Below are positions 4,171-17,205 of a DNA stretch of 20,000 nucleotides, piece by piece; position 1 is the first letter of the stretch; each line of letters begins with the position of its first letter. Both the position numbers and the translations under genes were made by a program. Source of the DNA: Chiloscyllium plagiosum (taxonomy: Eukaryota); the NCBI RefSeq assembly GCF_004010195.1, contig NC_057755.1, positions 12,448,127 through 12,468,126 of the forward strand. Reading direction: 5' to 3'. A model generated the notes under the pieces. It did not search any database and was not told the origin of the DNA. It saw only the letters and a list, made by a program, of their open reading frames with translations.

Positions 4171-4278
4171 TGCTTCCATCTCTCCTTAATCTTCCTTTCA
4201 AAATCAATCACTTCACTACTTCTGTGTTAGTTTTTTTTTCTATCATATTCTCTGTTCACTACATGGATGACTTTTATG

Positions 4279-4487
4279 ATTTGGAGATGCCGGTGTTGGA
4301 CTGGGGTGTACAAAGTTAAAAATCACACAACACCAAGTTATAGTTCAATATAGGTTTAATTCGGAGCACTGCTCCTTCATCAGGTGGTTGATAAAGGAGG
4401 ACCTGATGAAGGAGCGGCGCTCCGAAAGCTAGTGCTTCCAATTAAACCTGTTGGACTATAACCTGGTGTTGTGTGATTTTTAACTTT
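4279..4487. mobile_element. Non-coding Penelope-type pLTR fold-back mini-element carrying hammerhead motifs
   Basis: Inverted arms 4311-4385 and 4401-4488, plus a ~30-nt extension (4279-4310); flanked by the 13-bp direct repeat GATGACTTTTATG (4266-4278) / GATGAATTTTATG (4488-4500). Confidence 0.8.
4400..4435 (+). ncRNA. Minimal type-I hammerhead ribozyme motif (Penelope-associated)
   Basis: CUGAUGA (4403-4409), A, stem II GGAGC-GGC-GCUCC (4411-4423), GAAA (4424-4427), palindromic AGCU helix III, NUH = CUA with predicted cleavage after 4431; short stem I (AC/GU). Confidence 0.7.
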
Positions 4488-5004
4488 GATGAATTTTATG
4501 TCATTTACACCTATTGATACATATTAAAGGAGAAGAGATCCAACGCTAATCATTGGAGAAGCACCTATCTATGACACATTTCAATCTGAGAAACAACCAT
4601 CAATTACTGCACTCTGCTTTTTGCCCTTTCATACCCACACTGCCGTTGCCCCATTAATTTCAAGGAATTAACTCTGAACAAACTTTGAGGATACAAGGCG
4701 AAGTGAGAGAGAGAGAGTGCAGGACCTGGATCAGAACAGGACAAAGAGCAAGGACACCAGAAGGAGAGTCACCGTGGCCATCAGAGAGCCTGCAGATCGT
4801 GAGGTTGAAACTGATTAAAAGTTGGCATCAGCAAAAGGAGAGGAATTGATTGTCCATCAGCCTAATGCTGTGGGAGCAATGAGTCTTTGCTAATATCATG
4901 GGAGCTGATTGATGGTTAATACCTCTTGCTTTGATACCAGCCAACATGACTGAAGGCTCCTAGGATATGAGCTGTGTTGTGGATTAGGAGCAACAACATG
5001 TGTG

Positions 5005-13011: not shown

Positions 13012-13107
13012 GGCATTCTTATTAGCTGGACCAAAGGCTTCACTGCCACTGGTGTGGAAGGACAGGAAGTTATTTCTCTGTTGAAAGAAGCTATTACAAG
13101 AAATGGA
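13012..13107 (+). CDS. Hexokinase-family gene, internal 96-bp exon (equivalent to exon 5 or 13 of HK1-3/HKDC1, exon 5 of GCK)
   Basis: ttttag|GGC...GGA|gtgagt; phase 0-0; translates [32 protein letters not shown] with the hexokinase WTKGF glucose-binding motif; 96-bp size matches the conserved HK exon. Confidence 0.96.
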
Positions 13108-13193
13108 GTGAGTATTATGGAAAACTGTTGTTCATGAACAGAAAATCTGCTGATTACTGAAACTTGTCATGATTTCTGTTTTGTTGCTTCTAG

Positions 13194-14957: not shown

Positions 14958-15994
14958 AGTCATAGATTCATAGAATCCTACAGCATGGAGACAGGTCCTT
15001 TGGCCCAAATTGCTCCATGCCAACAAGATTCTTGTCCATCCACAGTAACCCCATTTCCCTGCACTTGGCCCATATCCTTTTACACCTTTCCTATCCATGT
15101 ATCTGTCCAAATGCCTTTTCAATGTTGTTAATGTACCTGCCCCAACCACTTCCACTGGCAGCTTATTACATATGCGTACCACCCTCTGTGTAAAATATTG
15201 CCCCTCAGTTCCCTTTTATTCCTTCCCCTCTAACTTTAAACTGATGCCTTCTAGTCCTTGATTCCCCAGCCATGGGAAAAAGCATTCACCCTGTCCATGC
15301 CTCTCATGATCTTATACACTTTGATAAAATCCCCCCTCAGTCTCCTATGGTCTAAAGAAAAAAAGAAGTCCTAGCTTGTCCAACCTCTCCCTGTAACTCA
15401 GACCATTGAGTCCAGTCCTTGTAAATTTCCTCTGCACTCTTACCAGTTTAATAACATCCTTACTATAACAAGGTGACCAAAACTGAATACAATATTCTAA
15501 CTGTGGCCTCCCTAATGTCCTACATAACTGCAACATAATTTCCCAACTTCTATACTCAATGGCCTGACTAGAGGCTAGTGTGCCAAAAGCCTTCTTTACT
15601 GCCCTGCCTACCTGTGACTTCACTTTCAGAGAACCGTGTACCTGAACTCCAAGGTCCCTCTGCTCCACTACACTCCTTAAGGCCCTACCATTCACCATGA
15701 AATCCCTACCTTGATTTGACTTTCCAAAATTCAAGACCTCACACTTATCTATATTAAGCTCCATTTGCCATTTCATGGCCCACTTCCCTAGCTGATCGAG
15801 ATCCTTGTGTAATTTCTGAAAACCTTCCTCACTGTCCATGATACTGCCTATTGTAGTGTCATCTGCAAACTTACTAATCATACCTTGTATATTCTCATCC
15901 AAATCATTGATTTCGATAACAAACAGTAATGGGCCCAGCACTGACCCCCGAGGCACTCCACTAGTCACAGACCTCCAGGCTGACAAGTGTCCTT
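14958..15994 (-). mobile_element. CR1 LINE 3' ~1 kb (left arm of inverted pair)
   Basis: ORF 15345-16031(-): [48 protein letters not shown]; 3' tail GGATTCTATGAATCTATGACT. Confidence 0.93.
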
Positions 15995-16015
15995 TCAATT
16001 TTACATGATCAATGA

Positions 16016-17205
16016 GTGTGAGGGAGATCATGACTCACAAATTTGTTAGAGTTCTTTCAGGAAGTGCCCAGGAAGGTTGACGAAGGCAGGGTGGTAGACA
16101 TAGTCTATATGGATTTCAGTAAGGCCTATGATAAAGTTCCAATTGGTAAATTGCTCCGGAAGGTTAGATTGCATGGAGTCCAGGGCGAGCTTGCAAATTG
16201 GATACAAAATTGGCTTGATGGCAGAAAGCAGAGGGTAATAGTGGAAGGATGCTTGTCGGACTGGAAGCCTGTGATTCGTGATGTGCCTCGGGGGTCAGTG
16301 CTGGGCCCTTTGCTGTTTGTTATCGAAATCAATGATAATGATGAGAATGTACAAGGCATGGTTAGTAAGTTTGCAGATGACGCTAAAATAAGCGGTATCA
16401 TGGGCAGTGAGAAAGGTTGTCAGAAATTTCAGCAGGATCTTGATCATTTGGGGAAGAGAGCTGAGAAATGGCAAATGGACTTTAATATAGATAAGTGTGA
16501 GGTCTTGCATTTTGGAAAGTCAAATCAAGGTAGGAGTTTCATGGTGAACGGTAAGGCTTAAGGAGCGTAGTGGAACAGAGGGACCTTGGAATTTAGGTAC
16601 ACGGTTCTCTGAAAGTGGAGTCACAGGTAGACAAGGCAGTGAAGAAGGCTTTTGGCATAGTGGCCTTCAGTCAGACCATTGAGTATAGAAGTTGGGAAAT
16701 TATGTTGCAGTTTTGTAGGGCAGTGGTGAGGCTACACTTGAAGTATTGTGTTCAGTTTTGGTCACAAGGATGTTATTAAACTGGAAAGAGTGCGGAAAGA
16801 AATTTACAAGGATATTGCCAGGACTCTATGATCTGATTTTTTTTAGGAGAGGTTGGACGAGTTAGGACATTTTTCTTTAGAGCACAGGAGACTAAGGGGA
16901 CAACTTAGAGAAGTGTATAAGACCGTGAGAGGCATGGATAGGATCAATGAATTCAGTCTTTTCCCAGGGGTGGGGAACCGAGGACTAGAGGGCATCAGTT
17001 TAAGGTGAGAGGGTGGTACGCATATGTAATGAGCTGCCAGTGGAAGTGGTTGAGGTGAATGTAGTAACAACATTTAAAAGGCATTTGGACAAACACATGG
17101 ATAGGAAAGGTGTAAAAAGATATGGGCCTAGTGCAAGAAAATAGGACGACATGGACCAGTTTGGACCAAAGGGCTTATCTCCGTTCTATAGGACTCTATG
17201 ACTTT
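16016..17205 (+). mobile_element. CR1 LINE 3' ~1.2 kb (right arm of inverted pair)
   Basis: ORF 16043-16561: [47 protein letters not shown]; tail TATAGGACTCTATGACT. Confidence 0.93.

What the first reader, a model, noticed from the sequence alone, without database searches (positions are those of the whole stretch)
4266..4500. TSD-flanked ~210-bp non-coding fold-back element with a hammerhead ribozyme motif on each strand
Seen: two inverted arms (4311-4385 and 4401-4488, 15-nt spacer), a ~30-nt one-sided extension, and a 13-bp direct repeat with one mismatch on each side. The right arm has a complete minimal hammerhead on the + strand, the same sense as the hexokinase pre-mRNA (CUGAUGA-A-GGAGC/GCUCC-GAAA-GCUA, cleavage predicted after 4431). 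The left arm has the mirror copy on the minus strand, with the segment after GAA deleted. Known: Penelope-like element pLTRs carry minimal type-I hammerheads with a palindromic helix III that cleave efficiently as dimers, and inverted partial pLTRs with a short tail are typical of PLE insertions. Inference: this is either an extreme PLE truncation or a non-autonomous retrozyme/MITE-like family. In the transcript the long hairpin would compete with the ribozyme fold, giving a self-masking ribozyme in a host intron.
Basis: partly seen in the sequence, partly recalled or inferred. Interest (0 to 1): 0.75.

Follow-up and report, generated by a model that had tools for sequence, protein, structure and literature searches.

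The report
Head-to-head Penelope leader stub, shark
This 213-base mirror-image sequence in a shark hexokinase intron is one of thousands of stub insertions of a Penelope-like jumping gene, a known kind of footprint, and its small size likely arises because both halves were copied from the short front end of the element's RNA and ran off at a predicted transcription start, which would make an open question about how these elements copy themselves testable.

Summary
In detail: two inverted arms, a one-sided 35-nt tail, a 13-bp target duplication, an intact minimal hammerhead on + and a broken one on - (15-nt deletion), inside a hexokinase intron. It is not a fixed MITE or retrozyme. It is a 5'-truncated, head-to-head insertion of a Neptune-type Penelope-like element (PLE): the arm runs on into GIY-YIG and RT sequence at other loci, and the tail ends in the ORF's start codon. 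Among 166 loci picked by the tail alone, 119 have an inverted arm and sizes run from about 80 nt to over 3 kb. Arm ends pile up 25-39 nt upstream of the hammerhead cut (102 of 179 arms at risk, then 7 of 77), 30 nt below a conserved TATA box, not at the cut. Family RNAs are polyadenylated about 30 nt after the cut, upstream of both copying starts; 0 genomic copies carry that poly(A) against 46,315 that read through. Likely mechanism: two run-off cDNAs from the RNA leader, joined head to head. The ribozyme here is predicted fully masked; no function is shown. The scan has noted this kind of insertion many times on other DNA.

The parts
4266..4278 (+). Left target-site duplication copy (last 3 nt shared with the element end)
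   Evidence: 81 of 114 two-arm loci have such duplications, mostly 12-13 nt, against 1 of 114 shuffled pairs
4276..4310 (-). 35-nt tail: the last part of the PLE 5' leader, ending two bases into the ORF start codon
   Evidence: 27 of 30 ORF-start loci carry this sequence directly upstream of MTTIDTT-type starts; 5,990 exact matches to the 33-nt terminus
4311..4390 (-). Tail-bearing arm in the element's sense; hammerhead core at 4383-4377, broken by a 15-nt deletion near 4360 that removes helix III and the cut site; 5' end about 36 nt upstream of the cut
4391..4400 (.). Junction filler, most simply a short (8 of 9) copy of the start of the right arm; an alternative parse extends the left arm about 7 nt further with a 5-nt replacement
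   Evidence: sequence; similar fillers in L002, L003, L009, L026, L028
4401..4488 (+). Inverted arm without the tail
   Evidence: 111 of 119 inverted arms stop 31-45 nt short of the tail end
4401..4433 (+). Minimal type I hammerhead motif: core 4403-4409, helix II 4411-4423, palindromic AGCU 4427-4430, predicted cut after 4431, helix I only 2 bp from parental sequence
   Evidence: 98 of 105 core-intact motifs in 166 loci have the same GC-UA
4441..4461 (+). ATTAAA hexamer (4441-4446) and the positions (4458-4461) where family RNAs receive poly(A)
   Evidence: 1,437 of 3,107 reads laid from run X21 have an A-tail behind 4458, 4460 or 4461; these reads come from family copies, not shown for this locus
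4488..4500 (+). Right target-site duplication copy
13012..13116 (+). Host context: next hexokinase exon downstream; the element lies in a 25.5-kb intron of a two-domain hexokinase gene

Best explanation
This is a dead, 5'-truncated head-to-head insertion of a Neptune-type Penelope-like retrotransposon, and it was likely built from two separately primed cDNAs that each copied the short 5' leader of the element's RNA and ran off at its predicted transcription start. Shown: family identity, target duplication, two fixed 3' ends about 35 nt apart (one at the ORF start codon), a sharp upper edge of arm 5' ends at about +37 to +39 from the hammerhead cut, a conserved TATAAA 30-32 nt above that edge, and poly(A) addition about 30 nt below the cut in family RNAs. 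Inferred: the endonuclease cuts both target strands about 12 nt apart; one strand primes at the start codon, the other about 35 nt upstream; both cDNAs stop at the cap after about 129 and 94 nt; host end-joining trims and joins them, giving 170-260 nt fold-backs anew at each site. In this copy a later or concurrent 15-nt deletion broke the left hammerhead; the right one is predicted to be held in the long hairpin and is most likely inert.
For: Contiguity tail-hammerhead-UTR-EN-RT in L062, L084, L087, L095; RT piece matches shark ORFs at up to 86% and relatives carrying RT plus GIY-YIG; tail abuts the ORF start in 27 of 30 loci. 119 of 166 tail-selected loci have an inverted arm, 111 of 119 ending 31-45 nt short of the tail. 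Ends at +25..+39: 56 of 146 arms in the first 90 loci, 46 of 125 in 76 new loci; 102 of 179 at risk versus 7 of 77 in the next 15 nt, Fisher p 1e-13, and 32 of 211 in the 15 nt before. Loci without a scored inverted arm show the same edge (16 of 51 at +25..+39, 0 at +40..+54), as do 6 of 27 ORF-bearing copies. TATAAA lies 38 or 40 nt above the core in 30 of 34 long arms although the spacer sequence differs between subfamilies. In 51 of 100 loci the tail-less arm reaches more than 5 nt further upstream than the tail arm, so each arm holds sequence the other lacks. 11 of 78 arm pairs differ at a 2-nt subfamily marker. A purified PLE protein cuts and extends both strands and starts at two internal sites that bound the tail (PMC11167929).
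Against: The transcription start is predicted, not seen: no pile-up of RNA starts was reported, the library is 3'-end type, and the poly(A) reads run a median 23 nt upstream of 4401, past the predicted start. The edge also coincides with the 5' border of the hammerhead, so an RT stop at structure is not excluded. Most ends lie 3-12 nt short of +37 (modes +28, +32, +34), which needs trimming. Sister arms are usually alike: 67 of 78 concordant at the marker, 18 shared rare variants against 2.3 expected, and several long sister arms are nearest neighbours; this fits one source but also fits fold-back copying or later conversion. One discordant pair (L039) shares a rare variant, so slippage explains some discordance. 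77 of 271 arms do pass the predicted start. Long inverted arms are under-assembled (N gaps).
Confidence: 0.65

Rival explanations
1. Same PLE origin, but one cDNA folds back on itself (self-priming) to make the mirror arm, and later deletions at the unstable palindrome centre make the arms uneven.
For: Self-priming was proposed for head-to-head junctions in PMC3846280. Sister arms share rare variants more than chance (18 vs 2.3) and are mostly concordant. Centre deletion in long palindromes is known (recalled).
Against: The tail-less arm is the longer one in 51 of 100 loci and the tail arm in only 22; 11 of 78 pairs differ at the marker, two of them (L024, L027) also at the linked loop bases; junction fillers look like end-joining products; it does not explain the fixed 35-nt offset, which two RT start sites do.
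Confidence: 0.15
2. Two primings as in the best explanation, but the cDNAs stop because RT stalls or drops off just after the folded or protein-bound hammerhead on a long read-through RNA, not at an RNA end.
For: The pile-up lies on the 5' border of the hammerhead; PLE mRNA was proposed to be multimeric; 77 of 271 arms go beyond it.
Against: The edge falls 30 nt below a conserved TATAAA at an initiator-like sequence (spacing rule recalled); ends lie upstream of the structure rather than at its 3' foot, where RT would be expected to pause (inference); family RNAs are polyadenylated before the priming sites.
Confidence: 0.15
3. A non-autonomous retrozyme- or MITE-like element that is copied as a fixed fold-back unit.
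For: 63 of 114 two-arm loci are 170-260 nt long; the 40 best hits all cover nearly the whole query.
Against: Arm ends and junctions vary among loci and sizes run from about 80 nt to over 3 kb; the two ends are unequal (tail on one side); units are head-to-head, whereas non-LTR retrozymes are described as tandem repeats.
Confidence: 0.03
4. The copy acts on its host as a conditional ribozyme or a cryptic poly(A) site in the hexokinase pre-mRNA.
For: The intact motif and ATTAAA are in the host sense; family copies elsewhere are polyadenylated at this position; the site appears filled in two other organisms.
Against: Predicted fully masked; minimal hammerheads are inactive as monomers and weak as dimers (PMC4209133) or need the PLE protein; no partner copy in the window; no reads on this locus's flanks in about 2% of one run (weak).
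Confidence: 0.04

Closest known systems
EN+ Penelope-like element insertions with inverted pLTR, one-sided 30-40 bp tail and TSD (Pen2a_Av, PMC3846280; Fig. 2 legend of PMC8557442)
   Same: Inverted 5'-truncated copy, tail at one end, short target duplication, tail overlapping the ORF start region, TATA and initiator-like motifs in the pLTR.
   Different: Here most insertions hold no ORF at all and are only two leader stubs; end statistics over 166 loci show a sharp upstream edge, and family RNAs are polyadenylated inside the pLTR.
Neptune/Nematis clades of EN+ PLEs (CX2-5CxxC linker; PMC8557442)
   Same: [quoted passage not shown]
   Different: Not placed on a tree here, so Neptune versus Nematis is not tested; no microsatellite target bias was evident in the flanks read (not quantified).
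Minimal hammerheads of metazoan PLE pLTRs (PMC4209133)
   Same: Core boxes, extra base before helix II, G-C closing pair, palindromic positions 15.2-16.2 with no loop 3, short helix I; dual motifs on opposite strands 100-700 bp apart were already reported.
   Different: Helix II is 5 bp and helix I 2-3 bp; one of the two motifs is deleted in this copy.
Poseidon of Anolis (PAc), in vitro (PMC11167929)
   Same: Both target strands cut and extended; two internal RT start sites that bound the tail; hammerhead cleavage not needed, and no ends at the cut.
   Different: In PAc the starts lie over 100 nt inside the ORF and the ORF begins in the hammerhead; here the tail ends at the start codon, about 93 nt below the cut.
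Non-LTR retrozymes of animals (bioRxiv 10.64898/2026.07.22.740005)
   Same: Short, non-coding, hammerhead-bearing, related to pLTRs.
   Different: Those are tandem repeats with a family unit; this is head-to-head with variable junctions.
Minus-strand strong-stop DNA and U3-R-U5 LTRs of retroviruses and LTR retrotransposons (recalled)
   Same: Works like it in layout: promoter, then start, then poly(A) site, then priming near the start of the coding region; short run-off cDNA.
   Different: Priming is from cut target DNA, not tRNA; GIY-YIG endonuclease, not integrase; no strand transfer has been shown.

Membership tests
EN+ Penelope-like element | Single ORF with PLE-type RT and C-terminal GIY-YIG endonuclease linked to the repeat | tested here: met
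   Contiguous in L062, L084, L087, L095; weak RVT_1 hit E 0.007; 281 relatives, several with RT and PF01541. The EN pieces themselves gave no Pfam hit and are named from motif and relatives.
EN+ Penelope-like element | pLTR repeated before and after the ORF (partial tandem) | tested here: met
   Same sequence follows the EN and precedes the ORF start in 27 of 30 loci; L158 has EN, pLTR, then ORF start.
EN+ Penelope-like element | Inverted 5'-truncated copy, one-sided 30-40 bp tail, TSD | tested here: met
   119 of 166 loci with inverted arm; 111 of 119 lack 31-45 nt; 81 of 114 with TSD vs 1 of 114 null.
Neptune clade | CX2-5CxxC linker between RT and EN | tested here: met
   C-x4-C-x2-C in L110 and P0004, P0006, P0007; definition from PMC8557442. 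Shared with Nematis.
Neptune clade | RT phylogenetic placement | not tested
   No named reference set was at hand.
Minimal type I hammerhead | CUGANGA and GAAA boxes, helix II, palindromic helix III, UH at the cut | tested here: met
   Right arm; no Rfam model matched.
Minimal type I hammerhead | Self-cleavage as dimer or with protein | not testable with these tools
   Only 13 of 271 arm ends fall at -5..+4 of the cut; no RNA end pile-up listed.
Non-LTR retrozyme | Tandem head-to-tail units delimited by hammerheads | tested here: not met
   Head-to-head arms; no tandem repeat at the locus.
MITE / fixed fold-back family | Constant length and centre, symmetric termini | tested here: not met
   Variable ends, sizes about 80 nt to over 3 kb, tail on one side.

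The most novel reading that the evidence does not exclude
The PLE pseudo-LTR is organised like a true LTR: U3 with TATA, a 67-nt R holding the whole hammerhead between start and poly(A) site, and U5 running to the start codon. Both priming sites lie in U5, which a polyadenylated mRNA carries only at its 5' end, so every insertion begins as target-primed strong-stop DNA; long copies need a jump to the 3' R (retrovirus-like strand transfer), which regenerates pLTRs and partial tandems, and the tens of thousands of ~210-bp fold-backs are double failed transfers.
Probability: 0.3. Interest if true: 0.75.

Novelty: new member of a known kind. Interest (0 to 1): 0.45.

Why it matters
As a locus it is ordinary: one of at least tens of thousands of arms of this family (46,315 exact 24-mer matches). 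Its value is as a member of a very large natural record of PLE insertion events. [quoted passage not shown] The record here gives exact, testable coordinates: a predicted start 8 nt above the hammerhead core, a poly(A) site 30 nt below the cut, and two priming sites below that. If confirmed, the short fold-backs are run-off products and PLEs would combine target-primed RT with an LTR-like template jump. It also warns that such palindromes will be mis-annotated as MITEs or miRNA hairpins.

Tried and rejected
Rfam at E<=5 gave no ribozyme hit. PF26215 is not in the library held; PF01541 found one unrelated-looking hit in the genome, so the parent was found by walking from the tail. Pfam did not recognise the two EN pieces. 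Hammerhead cleavage as the cause of truncation: rejected, 13 of 271 ends at -5..+4 and 1 exactly at 0. Priming from the poly(A) end as in LINEs: 0 matches for the main site followed by five more A's against 46,315 read-through matches (one exact pattern, the 4458 site and the AATAAA subfamily's other variants not searched separately, and homopolymer patterns may be handled less well). 'Two different RNA templates in most insertions': not supported; 11 of 78 pairs discordant, far below independence (9 of 54 observed vs about 23 expected); the first marker count had one mis-call and was replaced. First arm-length readout used one ruler with mutations near +31 and was replaced by six rulers. One search failed on an offset error, rerun. 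The count of 63 distinct centres is not used as evidence, since point mutations alone would make them distinct. Marker cross-table U3/R/U5 for strand-transfer mosaics was uninformative (32 arms). No RNA holder on record was listed; run X22 laid 0 reads; RNA starts could not be mapped. No empty orthologous site was seen: contigs of organisms C and D enter the element for 22-25 nt from the flanks, below the tool's 31-nt bar. Paper searches for the mechanism: 2 papers, listing only; 1 paper, discussion read; 15 of 17 listed; 0; 1, listing only; 8, listing only; none of the listings or passages seen describes strong-stop DNA or strand transfer in PLEs, but the 2005-2006 PLE reviews and all supplements were not seen.

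Full report
Observation. The sequence matches the description. Inverted blocks span 4311-4385 and 4401-4488 and fold far better than shuffles (z -15.5, 0 of 200). The 13-bp direct repeat has one mismatch, the + strand hammerhead starts at 4403 with a predicted cut after 4431, and the left arm lacks 15 nt and has 2 extra. Rfam gave no ribozyme hit. Hexokinase profile hits on + at contig 12435475-12435612 and window 13012-13116 put the site in a 25.5-kb intron. The nearest named relatives of the parent protein are from sharks.

A family, but not a fixed unit. The whole element has 1,394 candidates in the genome, 40 scored. The 30 best share both ends but each has its own target duplication and centre. 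The 33-nt left terminus has 5,990 exact matches and a 24-mer in the arm 46,315. To avoid selecting on structure I took loci by the tail alone: 90 of the first 92 places listed (two facing tails 1.9 kb apart were skipped) and 90 of the first 91, of which 12 were duplicates and 2 were missed by the script, leaving 76. Of these 166, 119 have an inverted arm (64 of 90, 55 of 76) and 111 of the 119 stop 31-45 nt short of the tail end (only arms reaching within 60 nt were scored). Of 114 two-arm loci, 81 have a target duplication, mostly 12-13 nt, against 1 of 114 shuffled pairs; sizes run from about 80 nt to over 3 kb, with 63 at 170-260 nt.

The parent. Long tail arms continue through about 600 nt of non-coding sequence into GIY-YIG-type and RT coding sequence on the minus strand (L062, L084, L087, L095). 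The RT piece has 281 relatives, the best at 86% in shark ORFs, several annotated with RT and PF01541. A C-x4-C-x2-C linker marks the Neptune/Nematis type by the definition in PMC8557442 (passages); no tree was made. Using the N-terminus of relative P0119, 27 of 30 ORF-start loci have the arm and tail directly upstream of the start codon. So the window element is two copies of the PLE 5' leader, and the tail ends two bases into the start codon. Inverted copy, one-sided tail and duplication are the published PLE pattern (PMC3846280 passages and Discussion; PMC8557442 passages), as are minimal hammerheads in pLTRs, including opposite-strand pairs (PMC4209133, parts 1-2 of 4).

Why so many are about 210 bp. 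I mapped arm 5' ends against six real copies, counting from the hammerhead cut. Of 279 arms, 8 with gaps were dropped, 50 run beyond +144 and 221 end earlier. 102 end at +25..+39, 7 at +40..+54 and 13 at -5..+4; the pattern holds in both sets (56 of 146, 46 of 125). As a share of arms at risk: 32 of 211 at +10..+24, 102 of 179 at +25..+39, 7 of 77 at +40..+54. A TATAAA box sits 38 or 40 nt above the core in 30 of 34 long arms, with subfamily-variable spacer; in L158 it is at 1342 and an initiator-like A at 1372, the usual 30-nt spacing (recalled). That predicted start is +37. Run-off from the two 3' ends gives about 129 + 94 nt, close to this copy once its 15-nt deletion is counted. The hammerhead cut is not where arms end.

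RNA. One poly(A) single-cell sample (X21, organism B, whose DNA run matches the window flanks at 1 difference in 199) shows A-tails behind window-equivalent 4458-4461 in 1,437 of 3,107 reads laid and at the same sites on L158 in 804 of 2,929, 12-15 nt after ATTAAA. These reads come from an unknown number of family copies and may be host transcripts ending in them; none touches this locus's flanks; X22 from the same sample laid none. They extend past the predicted start, so they are 3' ends of longer RNAs, and no RNA start was mapped. Both priming positions lie downstream of this poly(A) site, and no genomic copy has the main site followed by an A-run (0 vs 46,315). A polyadenylated mRNA therefore has the priming sites only in its 5' leader (inference), unless read-through RNA is the template as proposed in PMC11167929 (parts 1-2 of 4).

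One template or two. In 51 of 100 loci the tail-less arm reaches further upstream, in 22 the tail arm, in 27 they are within 5 nt, so simple fold-back of the tail arm needs later trimming in half the loci. Against frequent use of unrelated templates: 67 of 78 pairs agree at a 2-nt marker (discordant 6 of 25 in best-hit loci, 5 of 53 in tail-selected loci), rare variants are shared 18 times against 2.3 expected over 88 loci, and many long sister arms group together, though L062 does not. The simplest reading is two primings on the same or sister RNAs.

This copy. Helix II has probability 0.0 in the whole fold-back and 0.98 in the right arm alone; no second copy lies in the window. Minimal hammerheads were inactive as monomers and weak as dimers or needed protein. 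Contigs from two other organisms enter the element for 22-25 nt from flanks, which suggests an older shared insertion but is under the tool's bar; no empty site was seen. No host function is indicated.

Novelty. The structure is a new member of a known kind. The run-off and LTR-like reading was not found in the searches, nor in the passages read; PMC2377424 (passages) says pLTR regeneration has no obvious mechanism and reports a TATA-less internal promoter for Drosophila Penelope, which differs from the TATA predicted here. The retrozyme preprint was read as abstract and first part of Results. Supplements and older reviews were not seen and may bear on this. Earlier notes of this scan, looked up after these tests (499 findings hold the words), reach similar readings on other DNA; they are not independent support.

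Verdict. Identity as a truncated PLE insertion about 0.95; two-priming run-off mechanism 0.65; LTR-like strand transfer 0.3; interest 0.45.

Noticed in passing
window 14410-14385, minus strand: A second, different hammerhead-like motif (core, 5-bp helix II, GAAA) from another abundant repeat; similar sequence sits inside L062 and near other loci. Probably the end of another PLE family.
   Followed up: no
L163, L164, L169, L172, L177, L178 (upstream of the ORF start): 6 of 27 ORF-bearing copies begin at -30 to -37 from the hammerhead cut, right at or just below the poly(A) cleavage site, as if the downstream cleavage product had been the template. Short arms show no such cluster (7 of 257 at -35..-21).
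   Followed up: no
L158:1372 and 1568-1589: Joints from early ORF positions to exactly 1372, the predicted start, appear in three runs (X1, X3, X21) at low depth; the kind of joint was not shown.
   Followed up: no
window 15050-17145: Long inverted duplication (blocks of 85-88% complementarity, over 900 nt in all) of a CR1-like LINE fragment (family name from recalled motifs).
   Followed up: no
G000:C46:12346573-12504710 and 12592113-12700928: Two two-domain hexokinase genes in tandem on the same strand; the window lies in the first. Which paralogue was not settled; the downstream exon scores best against hexokinase-2 among solved structures.
   Followed up: partly
L062 (tail arm): Another palindromic repeat has inserted into the U5 part of this element, and its two arms fall in different subfamily groups 2.8 kb apart.
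   Followed up: partly
window 4442 equivalent across the family: The poly(A) hexamer is ATTAAA in some subfamilies and AATAAA in others.
   Followed up: partly
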